NCBI GenBank assembly: GCA_937920005.1
Contig: CALETF010000136.1
Location: 1-37,926 of the forward strand
Direction of reading: 5' to 3'
Length of the DNA stretch: 37,926 nucleotides
From: an uncultured Candidatus Altimarinota bacterium
Lineage (GTDB): Bacteria > Patescibacteriota > Gracilibacteria > BD1-5 > JAGOOR01
Shown: positions 12,623 to 25,603 of the stretch, in pieces
Position numbering within the stretch: the first letter of the stretch is position 1
Layout of the letters: the number at the start of each line of letters is the position of its first letter
Program-made: the position numbers and the translations under genes
Notes under the pieces: generated by a model
What the model saw: only the letters and a program-made list of their open reading frames with translations
What the model was told of the DNA's origin: nothing
The model's database searches: none

Positions 12623-13303
12623 TTATTGCATATCACGATGCATCATCATGCTTTCTCCGAGCATGAGTTTCATTTGAGATATTTCTGAGCTCTGTACACG
12701 TATAACCTCTCGAGCAAAATCAGCCACTTCTTTTCGCGCATTGAGTTGAAGTACCTTTTCTGCCATTTGTACTGCACCCATATGATGCATTATCATACCC
12801 TGGAGAAACCAAGTATCCAGAGCTTTTCCTGAGAGCTTTGTACCGTCACCCATCATATTCTGGTAGCTCGGAGTCACAGTCGAATACTTCCAATCTGTTG
12901 ACCATTTTTGCATCATAGCAATTTCTTTTTCTTGTGCAGTGATGATGGCCTGCGCGAGCTTTTTGAGCTCAGGACTCTCCCCTTTTGCTACCACGAGACG
13001 AGCCGTATCAACTGCCTCCTGATGATGAGGTATCATATTGATAACAAATCCTTCTTCTGAGGTCACCATGCCACCATGATCCATCATCATATGATTCATA
13101 CCGCTCATGGATGAATTCTCATTATTAAATTTCTCACACCCTCTCATCTCAGGCATTTGTTTACAATGCTCTCGGAGAGCACTATCTTTATCATATTCTT
13201 TCTCCATCATATCATGAGGCTGAGCATCTCTGAAACCACCTATTTCTACAACAGCTATGAGAGCAACGAGACCAACGAGTATCCAAAGTGGAAGATTTTT
13301 CAT
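12623..13303 (-). CDS. DUF305-family four-helix-bundle protein with N-terminal membrane anchor
   Basis: ATG 13303 (MKNLPLWILVGLVALIAVV) lies inside track ORF 12623..13423. Repeated motifs IPHHQEAVDTARL and MIMHHMGAVQMAEK plus a Met-rich stretch. Ends TAA 12623-12625. Confidence 0.8.
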   Translation of the reverse strand: MKNLPLWILVGLVALIAVVEIGGFRDAQPHDMMEKEYDKDSALREHCKQMPEMRGCEKFNNENSSMSGMNHMMMDHGGMVTSEEGFVINMIPHHQEAVDTARLVVAKGESPELKKLAQAIITAQEKEIAMMQKWSTDWKYSTVTPSYQNMMGDGTKLSGKALDTWFLQGMIMHHMGAVQMAEKVLQLNARKEVADFAREVIRVQSSEISQMKLMLGESMMMHRDMQ

Positions 13304-13328
13304 AAAAAGAAAAATAAAAAATAAAAAA

Positions 13329-13616
13329 TTATTTACGGGTAGACACATCCCATATACGTGCGAATTCTTCGACAAACTTTTCGCCTTTTTTGGTATTTTT
13401 ATCGGTGAGATCAGTCCGACCACAACAGAGGAGATGATTTTTCATGAGATCAACATTGACGCTTCGTAGCAGTCCTATGGTCGCATTTATTTGCTGACCT
13501 ATGTCACCACAATAGCAATCGTCTTCTATCATTTGGTTCACTTTTGTGAGCGTCCCTTGTGCCTTTTTGACAGCAAGGAGGAGTTTTTTTTGGAGTGCAG
13601 GATTTGATTGAATCAT
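13329..13616 (-). CDS. csoR: CsoR/RcnR-family metal-sensing transcriptional repressor
   Basis: MIQSNPALQKKLLLAVKKAQGTLTKVNQMIEDDCYCGDIGQQINA...KNHLLCC carries the C ... H-x3-C ligand pattern. Alternative start ATG 13637. Ends TAA 13329-13331. Confidence 0.8.
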   Translation of the reverse strand: MIQSNPALQKKLLLAVKKAQGTLTKVNQMIEDDCYCGDIGQQINATIGLLRSVNVDLMKNHLLCCGRTDLTDKNTKKGEKFVEEFARIWDVSTRK

Positions 13617-13626
13617 AAAAAAATAA

Positions 13627-14013
13627 TTAATTAACATTTATAGAAAAATTGTACATACCCATACTACACGTTCCTACAATTTTTTCTCCAGATTTTGGAG
13701 CACCAAGATCTATCTCTGTCTCACCGTTAGCAGGGAGCATACCTCGATAGTTTGCAGAACGAACAACGAGAGAAGAGGAGCAGTCGTAAGTATTATTCGT
13801 TTTTACAATAAGCTTCGTTGGTATACCTGATTTGATGACTGATGTTTTGGGACGATACCCTCCACGAGCATTGATTGTGACATATTGTACACCATCACGT
13901 ACAATTATATTCGCCGCTGGACCGTCAACCGATTTTTCACTCTCTGGTAACATAATAAATACACTGATTAGAAGGAGAATGCCGACCAGAATCCATGGAA
14001 GATTTTTTTTCAT
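13627..14013 (-). CDS. secreted/anchored cupredoxin-like domain protein
   Basis: Uninterrupted ORF. N-terminal anchor, then SGIPTKLIVKTNN...GTCSMGMYNFSINV, typical of cupredoxin_1-type proteins found in metal operons. Confidence 0.7.
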   Translation of the reverse strand: MKKNLPWILVGILLLISVFIMLPESEKSVDGPAANIIVRDGVQYVTINARGGYRPKTSVIKSGIPTKLIVKTNNTYDCSSSLVVRSANYRGMLPANGETEIDLGAPKSGEKIVGTCSMGMYNFSINVN

Positions 14014-14018
14014 ATAGC

Positions 14019-15020
14019 CTAGAGATTAATAAGCGGAGGAATAATACCCAGTCATGCCAATCATGCAAGCAATGCAAAAACACCAAGTCACAAAACAACA
14101 ACGCCTGCTGATTTGAAAAAAAGTGTTGCATACTTTGATTTTGAAAAACCCTCTGCACCAAATGAGAGAAGTGCTAGAACTGGGAAAGTACCGAGAGCAA
14201 ATGAGAACATAATGAGTCCTCCTGTGATGTAGGAACCACTAGAGAGTGCGGCGATTTGCATCGATTGAGTAAAACCACATGGGAGGAAAAAAGTACCAAA
14301 TCAGATGAAAATAGGGGTCAAAGTTTTGTGCTCTATTTTTCTGAATATCTGAAAAATTCCCGTCGGGAGTGTCATCTTGCTCTGTCTCAATATACCAACG
14401 AGATCAGCCCCGAGCAAAATCATAACTAGAGCTGCAAAAATACCGAGCAGGCTCGTGAAAAATTGATTTATCTCAACCACATGTCAGAGAGCACCAAGGA
14501 GTCATCAAAGAAATCAAAACCCCAACATCCTGGCTCCATGAAATAGTACAATATTTTTTCTATCACTGATGGAGTCCTGTGATATCTTCGCTGAAAGAGA
14601 TAATACGAGACCTCAAACAACAGCGAGACAACTCGATACTGATGCTATGAGACCTATCAAAAAACTCGTCACTGGTGTCACCTGTCCTCCGATACCGAAA
14701 TTGAGTATTCCTGATTTTTGAAGGAGGAAAAATATACCTAAAAATATCAACCCTATAGGCACGGCCTGCCAGAGGATGCCTTCTTTTTCTAGTGTGTGTT
14801 TTTCGAGCGAGAGAGTGTATCCATGAGAAGAGAGCTTTTCTGCTAACAGTGGAAATATTTTTCACGCATCAGCTTCTTCTGGCATATCAATAGTAACTAT
14901 TTTTTCTTTCATAATCACGTGCGTTTTTGATCCCTGTACGATTTCTTCGACGACATCTTCTACCAGTATTTTACAAGCATTGCAGTGCATGCCCTGGATG
15001 TGGTAAGTATATTTTTTCAT
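14019..15020 (-). CDS. HMA-domain fused to a DsbD_2/TauE-like polytopic membrane protein
   Basis: Absent from the track because of ten in-frame TGA by my count. ATG 15020 gives MKKYTYHIQGMHCNACKILVEDV (GMxCxxC), followed by about six hydrophobic segments including FFLPCGFTQS. Ends TAG 14019-14021. Confidence 0.7.
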
Positions 15021-15021
15021 A

Positions 15022-17295
15022 TTAGAGTTTTTTAGCTTTTATGCGAAGTGAGTTACCGACGACTGAAACACTCGATGCTGCCATTGCTATGCCTGCGAAG
15101 ATAGGATTTAATAACCAACCAAAAAGAGGATAGAGAGCTCCCGCAGCGAGCGGAATTCCTACCATGTTGTAAATAAATGCCCAAAAGAGATTTTGTTTTA
15201 TGCCCATCATCGTTATTTTTGAGAGGTGAATAGCTTTCACTATTTTAGTGATATCACCATGTAGAATGACAATACCTGCACTTTCAATAGCTACATCAGT
15301 GCCAGTTGCCATGGCGATTCCAACATCCGATTGAGCAAGAGCAGGAGCATCATTGACACCATCTCCTACCATTGCAACGATATGATTTTCTGACTGTAGT
15401 TCACGTATCTTCATCAATTTATCTTCCGGAGATACTTCAGCAAAAAAGTCTCCAATACCGACCAGTTTGGCTATATATTCGGCAGTATTTTTTGCATCCC
15501 CTGTCATCATAATGATTTTTACACCGAGCTTTTTGAGCTGGATGATAGATTCTTTTGCTTCTCATTTTAATGCATCTGCCACAGTAATAATAGCGAGTAC
15601 TTGATTTTTACTTGCGAGAATAATAGGCGTTTTACCTTCTTGCGTTTCTTGGTTTATGAGTTCAGTATTATAGTCGAGCTTGAGGTCGTCCATTAAACGA
15701 GTATTTCCGACGAAATATTCTTCTTTTCCTATATTTCCCTGGAGTCATTTTCACTGTATTGAGATAAAGTTTTTAACAGGATGAAGGGATATATCTTCTT
15801 TCTCAGCATACGATACTATCGCTTCAGCAATCGGGTGCTCAGAATATTTTTCAAGAGAAGCAACAATGCCTATCAGCTCCTCATCTGATTTCTTTGAGAG
15901 ATTATGTATTTTTTGAAATTCTGGCTTTCCTTTGGTGAGAGTACCAGTCTTGTCCAAAATAATTGTATCGACATTATGGAGCTTTTGGAGAGTGGCAGCA
16001 TCTTTGATGAGTATTCCTGCGTTTGCTCATTTGCCTACTCATACAATAATCGCAGTGGGCGTAGCAAGTCCAAGAGCGCATGGACATGCGATGACGAGAA
16101 TACTAACAAAAGATACGATACCCAGAGAAAGTGCTGTAGAGAAACCGAGATATGCAGTCCCGACAGTCAGCCAGGCTCAAAATGTCAGCAGGGATAATAT
16201 GAGTACCACAGGTACAAATACGGCTGAGATTTTGTCCGCAAGTGCCTGAATAGGAGCTTTGCTACTCTGAGCTGTTTCTACCATTTTTATGATTCGAGCA
16301 AGCATAGTCTCTGATCCGATTTTGGTTGCCTGAAATCGAAATGCCCCAGTGGTATTGATAGTTCCTGCAATGACATTATCGCCAATATTTTTTTCTGTAG
16401 GAATCGGCTCACCAGTAATCATAGACTCATTGATAAACGAGCTTCCCTCCAAGACAACACCATCAACAGGGATTTTTGCACCAGGTTTTATGATGATGAT
16501 ATCGCCATGTACTACTTCTCCGAGCGGTATTTCTTGTTCTTTATTATTTCGAACAACAAGAGCTGTTTTGGTTTGTAGATTGAGGAGCTTCTTGATGGCA
16601 TCACCTGTTTTACTTTTAGAGCGAGCTTCGAGGTACTTCCCGAGTGTGATAAAACCTATGACGACTATGGTAACATCAAAATAGGTATACTCTGGCAAAA
16701 GAAATGTCTCTCGCACAACAGGAAAAAGAGTAATAATTATGCTATAAATATACGCAGTGAGTGTCCCAATACCAATCAATGTATCCATATTTGCGACACG
16801 GTGTTTGATAAAACGAGATACCCCGAGTAAGAATGGTTTTCCAATCCAAAAAAGCGTCACAGTCGCGAGAATCATGGAAATAATATTAAACATTTCCATT
16901 GGAAGAGGCAGCCGTGGGACAGTAATGAAAATCTGAGCAGCTATATCCCACATCATGAGTCAGAATACGAGAAATGTGATAGGGAGTACGAATTGTACTT
17001 TTTCCCGCTCTACTTCCATGACTTCATGATTTATATCGTGAGCGCTGTGGTCGTGCTCAGTATTCATTATTTTTTCACTATTTTCTGTATCAGAAAAACT
17101 GTATCCGAGAGGCTCAAGTACCTGATTCATTTTTTTAATATCAGTTTTTTGTGGATCAAAATCAAGAAGGGCTGTTTCTGTCCCAGGATTTACCTCAATA
17201 TGCTCTATTCAGGGTATTTTTGAGATTTTTCTCGTGATGATATTAGCGCAGCTTGCACAATGCATACCATGTACTTGAAGAGTTGTATTATTCAT
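15022..17295 (-). CDS. copA: copper-translocating P1B-type ATPase
   Basis: Track ORFs 15022..15510, 15751..15957 and 16177..16956 plus the N-terminus are all in one frame, joined only by TGA codons. Motifs: HMA GMHCASC, TGEP, CPC (IACPCALGLATP), DKTGTLT, MTGD, GDGVNDAP. Ends TAA 15022-15024. Confidence 0.95.
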
Positions 17296-17322: not shown

Positions 17323-17886
17323 CTAAAACTGGTACCACTCTTTTCTCCATCCCTTAAAAATCTCTAAAGTTGTCACAAAAAACGTATCAACTGCATCGGC
17401 ATTATTGAGTATTTCCATTCGTGATGATTTTGTCCGTACCTCTCGAGTCATCTTGAGTCCGTCTTCATGATGAGCGATGAGGGCGTTGAGAAAACGTAAC
17501 TCATATGTCTTGTCATAATCTCCGAGCTTAGCCACAATAGGATCTTTCACTTTTTTTGTATCGCCATACCATGATTTCTTCCAATCATAGAGCTCTTGGA
17601 TTGCAGGTGGTTCATTTTTGAGAATATCTGCTGCGAGGTCTTGTATTTCTTTTTTTTGTGTGAGCGGTTGTGCTTGTTCTGCCAGAAGCATAGCACCTCT
17701 ATGATGAGCTATCATCGCATTGATATATCGGAGATCGAGACCACGGTCTGCACGGCCGAGATCCATTCAACTCTTATCATACATTGAGAGAGTATATGCA
17801 GGAGTGAGGGAATATCATATTACTATACCAAGAATAGTACCAACTATAATAAGTGATACACTGAGCGTGACAGACATCTTTGACAT
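17323..17886 (-). CDS. DUF305-family protein with N-terminal membrane anchor (second copy)
   Basis: Track ORF 17323..17766 extends through TGA 17767-17769 and 17815-17817 to ATG 17886. Motifs MIAHHRGAMLLAEQ and LIAHHEDGLKMTRE. Ends TAG 17323-17325. Confidence 0.8.
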
Positions 17887-17920
17887 AGAGAGAAATTAAT
17901 AACTAAATATTTTGAATACA

Positions 17921-17955
17921 AAAAAAGAAAATCCATCCCGACGAATCGGGATGGA
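17921..17955 (-). terminator. strong rho-independent terminator after the Cys-rich peptide gene
   Basis: Perfect 10-bp stem tccatcccga (17932-17941) pairs with tcgggatgga (17946-17955), with a T-rich run on the minus strand. Confidence 0.8.
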
Positions 17956-17964
17956 GAAATAGAA

Positions 17965-18039
17965 CTACTTACCGCATCCTGTGCAAGAACAATTCTCACA
18001 CGCGCATGCACCAGTATTCTGACAAGCACAGTTTCCCAT
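17965..18039 (-). CDS. 24-aa cysteine-rich peptide MGNCACQNTGACACENCSCTGCGK (metallothionein-like candidate)
   Basis: ATG 18037-18039 to TAG 17965-17967, with 8 Cys in 24 residues. It is bracketed by a palindromic operator-like site upstream and a strong terminator downstream, at the head of the copper cluster. Too short for the ORF track. Confidence 0.5.
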   Translation of the reverse strand: MGNCACQNTGACACENCSCTGCGK

Positions 18040-18078
18040 AGTAAAAATAGTGAGGAGATAAAGTACCTTTGGTATATA

Positions 18079-18099
18079 ACCTATACCTGGGGTATAGGT
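18079..18099. promoter_or_regulatory. perfect 9-3-9 inverted repeat ACCTATACC-TGG-GGTATAGGT, candidate CsoR operator
   Basis: Seen directly, 40 to 60 nt upstream of the peptide ATG. Extra GGTATA copies occur at 18071 and 18097. Confidence 0.55.
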
Positions 18100-18141
18100 A
18101 TACTATTCAGAACAAAACAAAAAGCAAATAAAAATATATCG

Positions 18142-18843
18142 CTACATCCTGATGCCGCATTTTTCGACGTTTTTCAGAGCAATCTGCCTGAATAATTCGA
18201 GCTCATGCTCCGAAAAACTCTCTCAAATAAAGTCTGGACTAAGCGTATTTCCCGAACGATAGTTCTGCAGATAATAGTGTCATGCCCCAGAAATAGCCTG
18301 CGTGATATGCTCTATGTCTTCATATGTGTGAATGCCCTTTATCACAGTAGTACGAAATTCATACTCTGGAAGTCGTGTACGAATTATTTCAATGCTCGCC
18401 TTGTAGAGATTGATATCTATTTTTTTTTCGCTCACCACTTCATAGCGGTCGAGAGGATACTTGATATCCATGGCAATGTAATCAACCAGATTTTCGGTCA
18501 ATAATTTCTCGAGTACTTTCGGCTTACTTCCATTCGTATCCAGCTTCACGAGAAAACCTGTCTCCTTTATCTTACGACAGAAATCAGGAAGATCGGCATG
18601 AATAGTTGGCTCCCCCCCACAGATAACGACTCCATCGATAAGTCCTGCTCTCATTTTTAAGAATCTAAAAAAAATATTCTCACTAATAAAATCATGAGAG
18701 ATTTTTTGGATTTTTTCTGGTAAAACAAACTCACTATTATGGCAATATCCGCAGCGGAGATTACATCCTGCTGTGAAAACAATCGTAGCGACCTTTCCAG
18801 GATAATCGAGAAGAGTGCATTTTTTTATGCCAGAGAGCATCAT
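18142..18843 (-). CDS. nrdG: anaerobic ribonucleoside-triphosphate reductase activating protein (radical SAM)
   Basis: Track ORF 18280..18843 has CNLRCGYCHN (CxxxCxxC). It reads through TGA 18280-18282 and 18223-18225 (GHYYLQNY...) to TAG 18142-18144. Confidence 0.9.
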
Positions 18844-18844
18844 A

Positions 18845-19036
18845 TTATTCTCAATATTCTTCTAGAAACTTTGAATTATTCGTCCTATTCTCGTCAAAAT
18901 AAGTACGAGTATAAAATTCCGATTTTTTCCCATTATTAAATTGGCTCACAGGACGATAATATCCCATGACTCGAGTATATATTTCGCACTTGGTTCGAAC
19001 AACCTCTTTTCCCCTATCGTTGATAAATATTTCCAT
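18845..19036 (-). CDS. stand-alone glycyl-radical domain of NrdD (63 aa)
   Basis: MEIFINDRGKEVVRTKCEIYTRVMGYYRPVSQFNNGKKSEFYTRTYF contains the class III RNR glycyl-radical motif RVxGY...NxGK. The track stop TGA 18851-18853 is read through to TAA 18845-18847. The ORF is in the same frame as nrdD. Confidence 0.75.
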
Positions 19037-19066: not shown

Positions 19067-21283
19067 CTATCATTCAGTGCCTGTCACAACTTCCTCGAGA
19101 ACTTTCATTTTCTTCTCATCTGCCGTATAGGATTCACGGAATTGTATATCATATTTCTTCCCATGATACCCGAGCTCTTCATCGCATTTTGGACAGTAGT
19201 CATGTTCGCCTTTGATATAACCATGCTTTGGGCAAATCGAGAAAGTAGGTGTTATAGTGATATAGGGAAGCTGGTAGTTTGAGATGACTTTTTTGACGAG
19301 CGCTTTGCATGCTTCTGCATCTGTGATACGTTCACCCATATAGAGATGGAGAACAGTCCCCCCTGTATATTTACATTGGAGCTCGTTCTGGTACTCGAGT
19401 GCTTCGAAGGCATCATCTGTGAAATTGACAGGGAGCTGTGAGGAATTTGTATAGAATGGATTCTCTGAAGTTCCCGATTGTATGATGCTGGGAAGTTGTT
19501 TTTGATCTTCTTTAGCAAAACGGTAGGTAGTTCCTTCCGCTGGAGTCGCCTCGAGATTGTACATACTGCCTGTTTCTTCTTGGTATCCTTTGAGAATTTC
19601 TCGCATGTATTCGAGTGTTTCTATTGCAAATTGCTTTCCCCAGTCTGTCGATATATCCTCCCTTCCCTCAGTAAAGTTTTGAATTGACTCATTCATACCA
19701 TTCAAGCCAATAGTGGAAAAATGATTCCTAAATGAGCGAAGATACCTATATGTATAGGGATAGAGTCACTTCTCGAGCCATTCTGTGAGGACTTTTCTCT
19801 TTATCTCCAGAGAGGTTTTTGCTAAGTCCATGAGATACTTTACCCGCTTACGGAAAGCGATCACATCTCCCCTATTGATGTATCCTATACGAGCCATGTT
19901 GATGGTGACAACACCGATAGATCCTGTCATTTCCGCTGATCAGAAAAGTCCATTACCTCTTTTCAAAAGTTCCCGAAGATCAAGCTGGAGCCGACAGCAC
20001 ATCGACCGTACAGCGCCGGGCTTATAGGCCTCTTCGTTCTCTATAATCATATTATTGCCATTTTCATCTTTCACTCTCTTGTATTGTGAACCAATGAAAT
20101 TCTGAAAATAGGGCAGGCCGTACTTCGCTGTCATTTCAAATATTCGCAATGTATCAGGAGATTCCCAGGGAAAATCTTGCGTGATATTATACGTTGGAAT
20201 CGGAAAGGTGAATGCTCGTCCTTTGCTGTCTCCGGCAGAATACACCTCTATAAGCGCTCGATTGATGATGGCTCTTTCTGTGTCGAGTTCACTAAATTTT
20301 TTAACATATTGTCCTTTGCCATACCCTCCGAGGAAAAGTCCCTTGTCAGCTAAATCTGTAGGACAGGTCCAGTCAAGAGTGATATTGGTGAAAGGAGTCT
20401 GGGTTCACCAGCGAGACGGTACATTGAGACCAAAAACAAAATTCTGCATCTGCTGATAAACATATGAATATGTTTTTTCTGTTATATATTTTTCCTTCTC
20501 TGTCTCGCTGGAAAAAGAAATTCCATACGTTTCTATATCTTTCCTTATTTCCTCGGTATGTTTGTGGACGAAAGGAGACAAGTAGGTATCAAATGAAGAA
20601 AATGCCTGAGCGCCAGCCCATTCATTTTGGAGCGTTCAGAGGAAATTGATCATCTGATTGACCGCTGCCTGCAGATTCCGTGGAGGAGCCGATTCAATAC
20701 GGTTTGGCATACCATTGAATCCCTCTTCAAGAAGCTGACGAAGACTCCAGCCAGCACAATATCCAGAGAACATATCGAGATCATGGATGTGATAATCTGC
20801 ATTTCTGTGTGCATTTCCTATCTCAGATGGATAGATATGAGAGAGCCAATAGTTAGCTGTTATTTTTCCAGAGGTATTGAGAAGAAGACCTCCAAGAGAA
20901 TATCCAGAATTAGCATTTGCATTCACTCTCCAATCCGATTTATTGAGATATTCATCCATCGTCTTGCCGACTTCGACGACAACTGAACGGTCTGCTCGGG
21001 ATGTTGACCGTTTTTCACGGTAGAGAATAAAAGCTTTTGCTACTTGATTATGTCCGTATTTGGTGAGAATTTCCTCTATACTATCTTGGATATACTCCAC
21101 GTCAGGGAGATCTGTTCCTGTTTTTTCCCTTACATGCCTCACAACCTCATCAGTCAATGTAGGGATATGAGAAAAATTTTCTCACCCTACTGCCCCAATA
21201 GCTTTCTGGATAGCTAGCTCTATTTTTGTACGATCAAAAGTAACGATTGCACCATTCCTTTTTCTCACTTTATAAATGACCAT
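19067..21283 (-). CDS. nrdD: anaerobic ribonucleoside-triphosphate reductase large fragment (ATP-cone, barrel and Zn site, no glycyl-radical motif)
   Basis: Track ORFs 19070..19705, 19940..20245 and 20636..21157 are in one frame and joined only by TGA; I translated every gap by hand. ATP-cone MVIYKVRKRNGAIVTFD, then RSMCCRLQLD, TGSIGVVTINMARIG and ICPKHGY...CPKC. Ends TGA then TAG (19067-19069). Confidence 0.9.
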
Positions 21284-24548: not shown

Positions 24549-25178
24549 CTACTCTTTTGGAACAGTTACGTCTGCCTGATATTCAGCCGAGCATCCAGCA
24601 TAGAGAGCGATTTCAGAAAGAGGACGTTCACCAGTCACTCGACCAGCGACGTACACTGGACGTTCTGTGAGTGTCTCATTCGGACCATCTGTTAACACAG
24701 TGAGTTTCACGAGCTTTTCATATTCTGGAATATTTGAAGCAACGAGCTTTTCTGTTTTTTGTTTAAATGCTTCAACGTCTTTCAGGAGTTCTGGTTTATT
24801 TTTTTTGACAGCATCGGCATAGATATCCGTTGTGCTTCGGACTTTTGTGAGCTCAGAGTTGAAGAGATTTATAATTGCTTCTTTTGGAAGAGACTTGATG
24901 GTCGCATCTGGAAACTGCCATGTAGGATAGCTCATAATATTTCTATCACTACATTCTTTTGCCTGACCAGAGCCAACTGCACATTCAAAATATGGCATGT
25001 CTTTGACTGATTTCCCAAACATTTTCTTCTGTGCAGCACAGTGTGGACACCAAGAGGCACCAAACATAACCGCTTGGTTCTTTTGTAGACAAGCTGTGAG
25101 ATTCGAATAATCTTTATTCGTCGATCCACATGAAGCAAGAAGGAAACAAGCAGAGGCAGCAATAAGTATTTTTTTCAT
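24549..25178 (-). CDS. lipoprotein with thioredoxin-like domain (WCPHC)
   Basis: ATG 25178 gives MKKILIAASACFLLASCGS (lipobox LASC), followed by FGASWCPHCAAQKKMFG. Ends TAG 24549-24551. Confidence 0.75.
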   Translation of the reverse strand: MKKILIAASACFLLASCGSTNKDYSNLTACLQKNQAVMFGASWCPHCAAQKKMFGKSVKDMPYFECAVGSGQAKECSDRNIMSYPTWQFPDATIKSLPKEAIINLFNSELTKVRSTTDIYADAVKKNKPELLKDVEAFKQKTEKLVASNIPEYEKLVKLTVLTDGPNETLTERPVYVAGRVTGERPLSEIALYAGCSAEYQADVTVPKE

Positions 25179-25267: not shown

Positions 25268-25603
25268 CTAACAAGACGAACATGTCTCGCATCCACCACC
25301 CGTACTACACGTACCACATCATGATTTTTTGTCTGTTTCCCCACCAAAAAGAGAGATAAACAGACTCGTCAGTTCAGTCTGTTCTGGTGTCACACCCTCA
25401 AATATCATATCACGGAAATTGATGGATTCTTCTTCTATACAAAGAGCTGGTAGGCTCGTGATTTTCATTTGCTCACGATATTCTGGCGTATCGTAGAGCT
25501 CCACCGTTGTATGTGACAAAAGTCCAAGCTCCTCGAGGGAAGCCTGGACTCTTGATAGTAGTGTATCAGTATCGGGAGATGTTCCAACAATACGGATGAG
25601 CAT
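25268..25603 (-). CDS. small thioredoxin-fold (MTH895/Thioredoxin_3-like) protein lacking the N-terminal CxxC but carrying a C-terminal Cys-rich tail
   Basis: Track ORF 25319..25603 reads through TGA 25319-25321 into GCGTCSTGGGCETCSSC and ends TAG 25268-25270. It starts 3 nt after the rplY stop. Confidence 0.6.

What the first reader, a model, noticed from the sequence alone, without database searches (positions are those of the whole stretch)
17921..18110. Self-contained unit: palindromic CsoR-type operator, 24-aa Cys-rich peptide and a strong terminator at the head of the copper cluster
A perfect 9-3-9 inverted repeat ACCTATACC-TGG-GGTATAGGT (18079-18099) has extra GGTATA copies around it. 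It sits 40 to 60 nt upstream of a tiny ORF encoding MGNCACQNTGACACENCSCTGCGK (8 Cys in 24 aa, with CxC and CxxC spacing). A perfect 10-bp stem terminator follows immediately. A csoR gene and copA lie on the same strand just downstream. ATACC...GGTAT-type pseudo-palindromes around a G tract are what I recall for CsoR-family operators. A CsoR-like repressor controlling a small metallothionein has a precedent in mycobacterial RicR/MymT. A copper-buffering mini-metallothionein in a CPR bacterium would be new, and this ORF is too short for routine annotation. Alternative reading: a Cys-rich RiPP precursor, given the radical-SAM gene directly upstream. However, that gene is a canonical nrdG.
Basis: partly seen in the sequence, partly recalled or inferred. 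Interest (0 to 1): 0.72.

Follow-up and report, generated by a model that had tools for sequence, protein, structure and literature searches.

The report
Copper-regulated mini-metallothionein gene in Gracilibacteria
An unannotated 24-codon gene at the head of a copper-export operon in an uncultured, recoded (TGA = Gly) bacterium most likely makes a tiny copper-binding peptide much like the smallest fungal metallothionein, switched on by a copper-sensing repressor; this rests on sequence comparison only.

Summary

The order is promoter, palindrome, 24-aa ORF, hairpin, then DUF305–copA–HMA/DsbD_2–cupredoxin-like–csoR. The unit is the first cistron of that operon and is not self-contained.

The ORF recurs in 18 related loci as 7 variants. 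All 7 Cys are invariant, 10 of 19 variable columns are synonymous, and pN/pS is 0.40. It is absent from a 5.8-billion-cluster protein collection.

Its Cys spacing differs by one residue from Neurospora crassa Cu-metallothionein (11/25 identical).

The palindrome, TATACCTA(T/C)ACC-NNN-GGTATAGGT, is collinear in all relatives, abuts the -10 element and occurs once in 38 kb. It shares half-sites with canonical CsoR boxes but not their TAC-N9-GTA spacing. The CsoR keeps its Cu(I) Cys/His/Cys triad, and its DNA-reading motif co-varies with operator type.

Sister genomes carry 35–36-aa Cys-rich ORFs, or none, at the same place.

The RiPP reading is rejected. A Cys-codon attenuator is the main rival.

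This is a new variant of a known kind (RicR/MymT-like logic). No experiment supports it yet.

The parts
18100..18127 (-). Putative promoter: -35-like TTGCTT (18127-18122), 16-nt spacer, -10-like TAGTAT (18105-18100)
   Evidence: TTGCTT is invariant, and the TAnnAT-like hexamer keeps its position in window/L001/L002/L005. The sister group has TTGCAT-16 nt-TATACT. It is weak against the E. coli consensus (7/12) and was not called by the scan. The assignment rests on conservation and is inferred.
18074..18102 (.). Operator-like palindrome. The core is ACCTATACC-NNN-GGTATAGGT (18079-18099), within TATACC-TATACC-CCA-GGTATA-GGTTATA (minus-strand reading).
   Evidence: Perfect 9-3-9 repeat. Single exact occurrence in the window. 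Collinear and conserved in 9 representative loci while the 3-nt spacer varies. Abuts or overlaps the -10 element. Shares TATACC/GGTATA half-sites with canonical CsoR boxes found in L004 and L220 and in the literature (PMC3902906).
18062..18076 (.). Possible weaker second site TATACC-AAA-GGTACT (minus-strand reading), centred 20 bp from the main site
   Evidence: 2-mismatch hit to TATACCNNNGGTATA. Only partly conserved, with shifted spacing in L217 and absent in the long-cassette loci. Low confidence.
17965..18039 (-). 24-codon ORF MGNCACQNTGACACENCSCTGCGK (7 Cys, TAG stop)
   Evidence: It has 7 distinct variants in 19 sequences with all Cys invariant. 10 of 19 variable columns are synonymous, the best of the six frames. 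pN/pS is 0.40 overall and 0.14 in codons 14-24. It is 11/25 identical to N. crassa Cu-MT. It is not in the protein collection.
17920..17955 (-). Intrinsic-terminator-like hairpin: stem 17955-17932 (10 bp, loop TTCG) plus T-tract 17931-17920
   Evidence: 10 pairs, 6 GC; it folds independently. L001 has a compensatory stem change, CCATCCGCC-TCG-GCGGATGG. Each cassette type has its own hairpin 7-12 nt after the stop.
17323..17886 (-). DUF305 membrane-anchored protein (187 aa), second cistron
   Evidence: Pfam PF03713, E 2.4e-20. Exact match to NCBI MBP7823506.1, Candidatus Gracilibacteria bacterium.
15022..17295 (-). copA, a P1B-type Cu ATPase (757 aa under code 25)
   Evidence: HMA/E1-E2_ATPase/Hydrolase domains in the orthologues. 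82-95% identical in L001-L003.
14019..15020 (-). HMA-DsbD_2 fusion membrane protein (333 aa)
   Evidence: Pfam PF13386 (E 1.5e-28) and PF00403 (E 8e-6).
13627..14013 (-). Cupredoxin-like secreted protein (128 aa)
   Evidence: Pfam PF13473 at E 4e-4, below the curated cutoff. The orthologue in L220 carries PF13473.
13329..13637 (-). csoR (102 aa as the ORF is listed), last gene of the cluster
   Evidence: Pfam PF02583, E 6e-14. C43/H68/C72 align with M. tuberculosis CsoR C36/H61/C65. The helix-alpha1 motif co-varies with operator type.

Best explanation
The unit is the regulatory head and first cistron of one copper-inducible operon.

1. Without copper, the CsoR encoded at the far end of the operon binds the TATACC-repeat palindrome that abuts the -10 element and the transcription start, and blocks transcription (inferred).
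2. Cu(I) bound at Cys43/His68/Cys72 releases CsoR (inferred from family knowledge).
3. Transcription then yields a roughly 55-nt leader and the 24-codon ORF.
4. The ORF is translated into a hydrophilic 7-Cys peptide that forms a Cu(I)-thiolate cluster, like the 26-aa Neurospora crassa Cu-metallothionein, and buffers or hands over cytosolic Cu(I). Translation is supported by the substitution pattern. Cu binding is inferred from the Cys pattern and the genomic context.
5. The hairpin and U-tract 9 nt after the stop end most transcripts, so the peptide mRNA would be made in excess. The fraction that reads through expresses DUF305, copA, HMA-DsbD_2, the cupredoxin-like protein and csoR. This step is inferred from the absence of a second operator and the short 19-45-nt gap.

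The peptide-plus-hairpin segment behaves as an exchangeable cassette. Sister genomes carry a 35-36-aa Cys-rich ORF, or nothing, at the same place.
For: Coding:
- 7 variants in 19 sequences keep all 7 Cys.
- Cys codon positions 1-2 vary at 0 of 14 sites against 10 of 32 for other codons (Fisher p = 0.02).
- TGT/TGC wobble occurs at 3 Cys codons, and Thr20 and Gly21 use three synonymous codons each.
- The annotated frame has 10/19 synonymous columns against 2-7/19 in the other five frames; pN/pS is 0.40 overall and 0.14 in the C-terminal half.
- The long variants differ in length by whole codons, and one uses an in-frame TGA (Gly in code 25).

Metallothionein likeness:
- 29% Cys, no aromatic or large hydrophobic residues apart from the initiator Met, and CXC-X5-CXC-X2-CXC-X2-C spacing.
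- The family-8 pattern is X2-[CXC]-X5-[CXC]-X3-[CXC]-X2-C-X3, from a 26-aa Cu-thionein (PMC4755600).
- BLASTP gives 11/25 identity.
- The only PDB hits are metallothionein beta domains, and they are not significant.

Regulation:
- The palindrome is unique in the window and collinear in all relatives next to a conserved promoter-like element.
- Its half-sites are identical to canonical CsoR boxes that precede csoR/copA operons in other CPR lineages and to the streptomycete consensus ATATACCCCTNAGGGGTATAT (PMC3902906).
- CsoR is PF02583 with the Cu(I) triad, and its DNA-reading motif co-varies with operator type.
- No other operator-like site precedes DUF305-copA.

Precedent: the CsoR paralogue RicR controls the metallothionein mymT and the small ORFs socAB (PMC3944814).
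Against: - There is no transcript, protein or metal-binding data.
- The family is shallow, from closely related genomes with 79-100% identical DUF305 proteins, so the statistics are modest (p = 0.02).
- The palindrome lacks the TAC-N9-GTA spacing and the conserved G-tracts said to be needed for CsoR recognition (PMC3902906).
- The RLXR DNA-contact motif is replaced in this CsoR, so binding is an inference.
- The promoter hexamers are weak against the sigma-70 consensus.
- Close relatives lack the cassette (L003, L198) or carry poorly conserved Cys positions (L201, L203, L210). The peptide is therefore dispensable and its exact structure is not strongly constrained across the wider clade.
- Similarity to the fungal MT rests largely on Cys and Gly and cannot establish homology. 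Pfam and NCBIfam give no hit.
Confidence: 0.55

Rival explanations
1. Leader-peptide attenuator. The Cys-rich ORF is translated only as a sensor. Ribosome pausing at Cys codons, when cysteine or Cys-tRNA is depleted (for example by copper-thiol stress), would alter formation of the downstream terminator and tune read-through into DUF305-copA. The peptide itself would have no function.
For: A short ORF is followed within 7-12 nt by a hairpin and then by the operon, in all three cassette types. The peptide sequence and even the Cys positions vary between cassette types while Cys richness is kept. Polycysteine short ORFs act as cysteine-responsive attenuators in mycobacteria (bioRxiv 10.1101/834739).
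Against: - The Cys codons are not consecutive but sit in a fixed CXC spacing that matches metallothioneins.
- Non-Cys residues of the C-terminal half are kept through synonymous change (pN/pS 0.14).
- No competing antiterminator helix is evident. The terminator folds independently, and the ORF forms its own hairpin.
- The controlled genes handle copper, not cysteine.
- Relatives regulate the same operon with the same operator and no cassette (L003, L198).
Confidence: 0.13
2. The peptide is a Cu(I) chaperone or co-regulator rather than a buffer. It would take the place of the missing stand-alone CopZ and deliver Cu(I) to CopA's HMA domain or to CsoR.
For: The cluster has no separate copZ. HMA domains occur only fused to CopA and to the DsbD_2 protein. 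The peptide is co-induced with copA from the same promoter.
Against: Seven Cys in CXC motifs are typical of multinuclear thiolate clusters, not of the single MxCxxC site of CopZ-type chaperones. The hairpin predicts a large excess over CopA, which fits buffering better. The available data cannot separate this from the main model.
Confidence: 0.12
3. The peptide is a metallothionein-like binder for another soft metal (Zn, Cd, Ag), or a redox/thiol buffer, and its presence in the copper operon is incidental.
For: Peptides with the same Cys spacing occur behind MerR-type promoters in soil bacteria, where the metal is unknown. Metallothioneins are often promiscuous.
Against: The sensor has the Cu(I)-type Cys/His/Cys triad. 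Every neighbour is copper-related: copA, HMA, cupredoxin-like, and a multicopper oxidase in L200. The closest Cys pattern is that of Cu-thioneins (PMC4755600).
Confidence: 0.07
4. The unit is a non-coding element, either a small RNA or simply a structured 5' leader, and the ORF is fortuitous.
For: The region folds more stably than shuffled controls (z = -3.1). There is no Shine-Dalgarno sequence. The peptide is absent from all gene calls.
Against: No gene in the window has a Shine-Dalgarno sequence. The annotated frame has the strongest synonymous bias of the six frames and the Cys codons are invariant. There is no Rfam match. Independent cassette types all keep an open Cys-rich frame whose length differs by whole codons.
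Confidence: 0.06
5. The ORF is a Cys-rich RiPP precursor processed by the upstream radical-SAM enzyme.
For: A radical-SAM gene lies directly upstream in the window.
Against: That gene is the activase paired with nrdD. In L005, L200 and L211-L219 the upstream gene is pheT and the unit is unchanged. No other maturation, protease or export genes are conserved nearby. There is no leader/core architecture in 24 residues.
Confidence: 0.02

Closest known systems
Fungal family-8 Cu-metallothioneins (Neurospora crassa MT, P02807, MGDCGCSGASSCNCGSGCSCSNCGSK; Agaricus bisporus MT)
   Same: Size (24 vs 26 aa). Seven Cys in three CXC pairs plus one. An MG(D/N)C start, a CSC..CG core and a C-terminal Lys. 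No aromatic residues. 11/25 identical (PMC4755600). N. crassa MT is a Cu-thionein.
   Different: There is one residue fewer between the second and third CXC and one fewer at the C-terminus. The source is a bacterium (CPR, code 25), and the gene is operonic and repressor-controlled. Homology cannot be shown for so short and biased a sequence, so convergence is at least as likely.
Mycobacterium tuberculosis RicR regulon (mymT metallothionein, socAB small ORFs)
   Same: A CsoR-family Cu(I) repressor recognises a palindromic promoter motif and controls a small, originally unannotated Cu(I)-binding Cys-rich protein and copper-induced small ORFs (PMC3944814, PMC7558416).
   Different: MymT is 4.9 kDa (about twice as long) with no detectable sequence relation. 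It is a separate locus in a regulon, not the first cistron of the copA operon. There is no intercistronic terminator design. The operator sequence is different.
Canonical CsoR operators (streptomycete consensus ATATACCCCTNAGGGGTATAT; 5'-TAC-N9-GTA-3')
   Same: An AT-rich inverted repeat with ATACC/GGTAT half-sites around a short central segment. It overlaps the promoter of an operon that encodes csoR and copA. Tandem half-site copies occur, as discussed for copZA1 (PMC3902906). Canonical versions are present in other CPR copies of the same gene cluster.
   Different: The spacing is TAC-N5-GTA (inner) and N11 (offset) rather than N9. The central G/C tract is not conserved (CCA, TGA, TAT, ATA). 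The cognate CsoR has lost the RLXR motif.
Polycysteine short-ORF attenuators of mycobacteria
   Same: A short Cys-rich ORF is the first element of a polycistronic transcript (bioRxiv 10.1101/834739).
   Different: Those ORFs carry consecutive Cys codons and control cysteine-related genes. Here the Cys are in metallothionein spacing, non-Cys residues are conserved, and the operon handles copper.
Bacterial SmtA/BmtA metallothioneins (family 14)
   Same: Bacterial Cys-rich metal-binding proteins under metal-sensor control.
   Different: SmtA/BmtA are longer, have a zinc-finger-like fold with His ligands, are Zn-oriented and are regulated by ArsR/SmtB. No sequence or pattern similarity was found (no Pfam or NCBIfam hit).

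Membership tests
Metallothionein (general class) | Small size, high Cys content (about 15-30%), CXC/CXXC motifs, no aromatic residues | tested here: met
   24 aa, 7 Cys (29%), three CXC pairs, one CXXC (C19-T-G-C22) and no aromatic residues. The same holds for all 7 variants.
Metallothionein (general class) | Forms metal-thiolate clusters / binds several metal ions | not testable with these tools
   Needs Cu(I) titration of the synthetic peptide.
Fungal family-8 MT (N. crassa type) | Cys pattern X2-[CXC]-X5-[CXC]-X3-[CXC]-X2-C-X3 (PMC4755600) | tested here: not met
   The peptide has [CXC]-X5-[CXC]-X2-[CXC]-X2-C-X2. It is one residue short in the third spacer and in the tail.
Fungal family-8 MT (N. 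crassa type) | Detectable sequence homology | tested here: inconclusive
   Pairwise BLASTP gives 11/25 identity at E 1e-4 for a single comparison. Against the PDB only MT beta domains appear, at E 0.92-3.2. There are no Pfam or NCBIfam hits.
CsoR/RcnR family repressor (PF02583) | Profile match above the curated cutoff | tested here: met
   PF02583 at 52.6 bits against a cutoff of 22.8. Matches PDB CsoR 2hh7, 4m1p, 4adz and 7mq1.
CsoR/RcnR family repressor (PF02583) | Cu(I)-sensing Cys/His/Cys triad (M. tuberculosis C36/H61/C65) | tested here: met
   C43, H68 and C72 align with C36, H61 and C65.
CsoR/RcnR family repressor (PF02583) | RLXR-type basic DNA-contact motif in helix alpha1 and a conserved Gln (PMC3902906) | tested here: inconclusive
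   RRLK-IEGQVRG is replaced by LLAVKK-QGTLTK. The conserved Gln is kept (IGQQINA). The replacement co-varies with the variant operator.
CsoR-type operator | ATACC/GGTAT-type AT-rich inverted repeat at the promoter of a csoR/copA operon | tested here: met
   The same half-sites occur in canonical boxes of L004, L220 and L228.
CsoR-type operator | 5'-TAC-N9-GTA-3' spacing with intervening G-tracts (PMC3902906) | tested here: not met
   The spacing is TAC-N5-GTA and TAC-N11-GTA. The central triplet varies (CCA/TGA/TAT/ATA), so no G-tract is conserved.
CsoR-type operator | Bound by apo-CsoR and released by Cu(I) | not testable with these tools
   Needs EMSA or ITC with the encoded CsoR.
Intrinsic (Rho-independent) terminator | GC-rich stem-loop followed by a U-tract, with the structure maintained in evolution | tested here: met
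   10-bp stem with 6 GC pairs, then TTTTCTTTTTTT. Compensatory stem replacement in L001. The U-tracts are weaker in L200, L201 and L203, which fits partial termination.
Leader-peptide transcription attenuator | Alternative antiterminator helix competing with the terminator; regulatory codons for the amino acid whose pathway is controlled | tested here: not met
   No conserved competing helix. The downstream genes handle copper, not cysteine.
RiPP precursor | Conserved linkage to a modifying enzyme; leader/core organisation | tested here: not met
   The upstream gene alternates between nrdG and pheT. No maturation genes are in the conserved neighbourhood.

The most novel reading that the evidence does not exclude
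The 24-residue peptide would be the smallest natural metallothionein and the first from the Candidate Phyla Radiation. It would be a Cu(I)-thionein that converged on (or shares ancestry with) the Neurospora 7-Cys unit, encoded as an exchangeable 'peptide + leaky terminator' cassette between a re-spaced CsoR operator and the copA operon. It would also be one visible tip of a largely unannotated class of bacterial and phage mini-metallothioneins placed beside regulator genes: CsoR here, and MerR-type and ECF-sigma-linked examples in the metagenome sample.
Probability: 0.4. Interest if true: 0.75.

Novelty: new variant of a known kind. Interest (0 to 1): 0.62.

Why it matters
Only two kinds of bacterial metallothionein are cited in the review read here: SmtA/BmtA and mycobacterial MymT (PMC7558416). 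Copper buffering in ultra-small CPR bacteria is, to my knowledge, uncharacterised.

If the peptide binds Cu(I):
- It shows that the minimal 7-Cys Cu-thionein unit thought typical of fungi also exists in bacteria.
- It gives a 24-residue model that is easy to synthesise.
- It shows a CsoR that reads a re-spaced operator with a changed DNA-contact motif, which is useful for understanding operator specificity in this family.
- It is a concrete case of functional genes below annotation thresholds. The peptide is absent from 5.8 billion protein clusters.
- The Cys-spacing scan suggests similar hidden peptides beside MerR-type and ECF-sigma regulator genes and in phages.

Tried and rejected
Direct homology search:
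- A 45-aa open-frame work-around found no candidate.
- The exact look-up did not find the peptide.
- Pfam and NCBIfam gave nothing.

Pattern scans:
- The first Cys-codon pattern hit only TGY trinucleotide repeats in viral contigs.
- The refined pattern works. About 70% of those hits were (TG)n repeats, none was the Gracilibacteria family, and none had an ATACC..GGTAT box. It therefore says nothing about how widespread this exact family is.

Interpretive errors caught:
- An apparent 'N3 versus N9' difference between operators was an artefact of my regex. The elements align without gaps.
- Two scripts needed fixing: an orientation overwrite and a wrong start regex.

Readings rejected:
- RiPP reading: the nrdG linkage is not conserved.
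- Independent promoter for DUF305-copA: none was called by the scan, and only 19-45 nt are available. A weak Cu-independent promoter overlapping the T-tract in the window cannot be excluded.
- Known RNA family: none.

Not attempted: structure prediction, because the peptide is under the 30-aa limit and its fold would depend on metal.
Full report
OBSERVATION

The finding lies on the minus strand. Read 5'->3' on that strand, the order is:
- the end of nrdG (stop at 18142)
- a T-rich spacer
- TTGCTT (18127-18122), 16 nt, TAGTAT (18105-18100)
- the palindrome ACCTATACC-CCA-GGTATAGGT (18099-18079)
- a 39-nt leader
- ATG at 18039, with the ORF running to the TAG stop at 17965
- 9 nt, then a 10-bp/4-nt-loop hairpin (17955-17932) and TTTTCTTTTTTT
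- 33 nt, then the ATG of a DUF305 gene at 17886

The peptide is MGNCACQNTGACACENCSCTGCGK. It has seven cysteines, not eight.

The 9-3-9 repeat is perfect. It is the only spaced inverted repeat with 9-nt arms listed in the window. TATACCNNNGGTATA occurs exactly once in 37.9 kb. No Rfam family matches the region.

GENETIC CODE AND CONTEXT

Table 11 fragments copA, nrdD, nrdG and the DUF305 gene. Table 25 restores them. The 187-aa DUF305 product is identical to NCBI MBP7823506.1 from a Candidatus Gracilibacteria bacterium.

No gene in the cluster has a Shine-Dalgarno sequence, so its absence before the small ORF carries no weight.

Downstream on the same strand:
- DUF305 (PF03713)
- copA (757 aa)
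- an HMA-DsbD_2 fusion (PF00403 + PF13386)
- a cupredoxin-like protein (PF13473, sub-threshold)
- csoR (PF02583, 52.6 bits), 4.3 kb from the peptide

The CsoR keeps the Cu(I) triad: C43/H68/C72 align with C36/H61/C65 of M. tuberculosis CsoR.

COMPARATIVE EVIDENCE FOR THE ORF

The peptide cannot be searched directly. It is too short and is absent from the protein collection. I therefore used the adjacent DUF305 protein as an anchor.

The 24-codon ORF is present in 18 further loci, giving 7 distinct DNA and protein variants:
- MGNCACQNTGACACENCSCTGCGK
- MGNCACQSTGTCACENCSCTGCGK
- MEKCACQATGTCPCGTCSCTGCGK
- MGNCACQSTGACACESCSCTGCGK
- MEKCACQSTGTCACENCSCTGCGK
- MGNCNCQTTSTCACENCSCTGCGK
- MGNCACQTTSTCACENCSCTGCGK

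All seven Cys are invariant. Of 19 variable alignment columns, 10 are purely synonymous. Positions 1-2 of the Cys codons never vary (0/14, against 10/32 for other codons; Fisher p = 0.02). Three Cys codons toggle between TGT and TGC. Thr20 and Gly21 each use three synonymous codons.

In a six-frame control the annotated frame has the highest synonymous share: 10/19 against 2-7/19. Pooled pN/pS is 0.40, with 0.14 for codons 14-24.

The sample is shallow, because all the genomes are close relatives.

A VARIABLE CASSETTE

At the same position, between the palindrome and the DUF305 gene, sister genomes carry other Cys-rich, hydrophilic ORFs:
- MGNCSCHCSCSGDASNNQCSDNQTCTQEGDGCVCKD (L201/L202; it contains an in-frame TGA read as Gly)
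- MGNCSHTTGDKNTCCQQENQTCATSGDENTGCGCKD (L203/L204)
- MSDCSCSKDDKACCSEDNQACTSNAEAGCGCCCKD (L210)

Each is followed by a different hairpin 7-12 nt after the stop. L003, L198 and L199 have no ORF, and the palindrome directly precedes DUF305.

The gap from hairpin to DUF305 start is 19-45 nt, and no second operator exists. The downstream genes are therefore most simply expressed by read-through from the palindrome-controlled promoter. The unit is the first cistron of the operon and is not a self-contained module.

The upstream gene is nrdG in some genomes and pheT in others. This removes the RiPP/radical-SAM reading.

THE PALINDROME

Aligned without gaps, nine representative loci share TATACCTA(T/C)ACC-NNN-GGTATAGGT. 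It sits directly after a conserved TTGC(T/A)T-16 nt-TAGTAT/TATACT element. The central triplet varies (CCA, TGA, TAT, ATA).

The published hallmarks of CsoR operators are G-tract pseudopalindromes, a 5'-TAC-N9-GTA-3' repeat, and the streptomycete consensus ATATACCCCTNAGGGGTATAT (PMC3902906).

The same gene cluster in other CPR lineages carries such canonical boxes:
- ATATACCCCCTAGGGGTATAT, twice, in a Nomurabacteria genome
- TTGACTtaATACCCCATGGGGGTATAAT in Paceibacterota-type contigs
- TATACCCTATA-C-TATAGGGTATA in Peregrinibacteria-type contigs

The Gracilibacteria element shares the ATACC/GGTAT half-sites. Its spacing is TAC-N5-GTA (inner) and N11 (offset), and it has no conserved G-tract. 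It is a variant, not a canonical member.

The CsoR proteins co-vary with the operator. Those paired with canonical boxes have RRLK-IEGQVRG in helix alpha1. All those paired with the variant element have LLAVKK-QGTLTK. This supports the pairing of this CsoR with this palindrome but does not prove it.

WHAT THE PEPTIDE RESEMBLES

N. crassa metallothionein is MGDCGCSGASSCNCGSGCSCSNCGSK. It has 26 aa and 7 Cys, with the pattern X2-[CXC]-X5-[CXC]-X3-[CXC]-X2-C-X3. It is a Cu-thionein long regarded as one of the shortest MTs (PMC4755600).

The Gracilibacteria peptide aligns with it at 11/25 identities with one gap. It differs in pattern only by X2 instead of X3 in the third spacer and by a tail one residue shorter. 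The only PDB sequence hits are metallothionein beta domains, and they are not significant.

Homology cannot be established for such a short, biased sequence. Functional analogy is the claim made here.

PRECEDENT AND RIVALS

The M. tuberculosis CsoR paralogue RicR controls mymT and the copper-induced small ORFs socAB through a palindromic promoter motif (PMC3944814). MymT was itself an unannotated 4.9-kDa ORF, predicted to bind up to six Cu(I) ions (PMC7558416).

The main rival is a Cys-codon leader-peptide attenuator, as described for polycysteine short ORFs in mycobacteria (bioRxiv 10.1101/834739).
- For it: the invariable ORF-hairpin-operon arrangement, and the variability of the peptide between cassette types.
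- Against it: the metallothionein spacing rather than runs of Cys, conserved non-Cys residues, the absence of a competing antiterminator, copper rather than cysteine genes downstream, and relatives that lack the cassette.

BROADER SCAN

A context-free scan for the Cys-codon spacing gave real small-peptide families in phage contigs and in metagenomes. These include a high-GC soil family behind a MerR-type promoter and low-GC peptides next to ECF sigma genes. The metagenome scan was truncated and returned no member of the Gracilibacteria family. None of these families is covered by NCBIfam. Pfam Metallothio gives only sub-threshold hits for some.

VERDICT

The features are real and conserved. 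The best-supported reading is a CsoR-controlled, copper-inducible operon whose first, over-expressed cistron encodes a 24-residue Neurospora-like Cu(I)-thionein.
- Shown: the anatomy, the conservation, the coding signature, CsoR family membership with the Cu(I) triad, and the co-variation of operator and repressor.
- Inferred: CsoR binding to this re-spaced element, partial termination, translation in vivo, and Cu(I) binding.

I class it as a new variant of a known kind (RicR/MymT-type logic with a fungal-type minimal MT in a CPR bacterium). Interest is 0.62.

Noticed in passing
L049, L051, L054, L055, L060, L061, L065, L068, L072 (IMG/VR contigs); also L047, L052, L056, L059, L062, L069, L076: Phage contigs encode recurrent ~29-aa acidic Cys-rich peptides, such as MSACECPKCDCEDHGVCKCTDCECVKCNC and MKPIECDCSNCDCIDHKVCECDNCECSDCSC. 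They also encode a 111-aa membrane-anchored protein with the same CxCx5CxCx2CxCx2C core. These are possible viral metallothionein-like peptides.
   Followed up: no
L106, L121, L156 (and L082, L096, L114, L123, L132, L150, L164, L175, L188): High-GC soil metagenome contigs carry a small ORF of about 30-35 aa, MTD..CGCATEAGCRCNPCTCKNCSC. It sits directly behind a MerR-type promoter (TTGACT-ccgtaccatggtacgg-..TATAT) with a divergent MerR-like gene. This looks like another unannotated mini-metallothionein controlled by a metal sensor. NCBIfam and Pfam have no hit.
   Followed up: partly
L144 1485-1580, L171 2755-2850, L179 ~509-628: Small Cys-rich ORFs (MKANRKNNCGCATGQPCTCTNCTCENCTCQK; MTTKCTCPCGPECTCPDCQCPTCSCC) lie immediately upstream of ECF sigma-factor genes in unrelated low-GC and high-GC contigs. 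Pfam Metallothio is sub-threshold for the low-GC peptide (E 0.008) and gives no hit for the other. A possible link to sigma regulation was not examined.
   Followed up: no
window 18845-19036 (-) and 19067-21283 (-): The anaerobic ribonucleotide reductase is encoded in two ORFs. A 738-aa NrdD ends after its Zn-ribbon. A separate ~63-aa ORF carries the glycyl-radical motif (RVMGYY). The 61-aa product hits PF13597 in L214, and the gap is conserved in L001 and L002.
   Followed up: partly
window 25268-25603 (-): A 111-aa protein ends in a Cys-rich tail, SGCGTCSTGGGCETCSSC (6 Cys in 18 residues). It lies next to a lipoprotein with a WCPHC thioredoxin motif (24549-25178). This is a second possible thiol or metal-binding element in the window.
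   Followed up: no
L004, L220-L231 versus the window: The DUF305-copA-HMA/DsbD_2-cupredoxin block is 58-70% identical across Gracilibacteria, Nomurabacteria, Paceibacterota-type and Peregrinibacteria-type contigs. csoR moves from the tail of the block to its head, and a tRNA gene lies beside the block in L220, L221 and L227. This suggests horizontal spread of a copper cassette among CPR lineages.
   Followed up: partly
window 12623-13456 (-): A second, longer DUF305 protein with a Met/His-rich N-terminal region (MMDHGGM, MIPHHQ) lies directly after csoR, and its listed ORF overlaps csoR. L002 has an orthologue that is 90% identical.
   Followed up: no
L001-L003, L005 record titles: The GTDB/ENA MAG titles call these genomes 'Candidatus Peribacteria', but their genes need TGA = Gly (code 25), as in Gracilibacteria. 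NCBI labels the identical DUF305 protein Gracilibacteria. The MAG names look unreliable.
   Followed up: no
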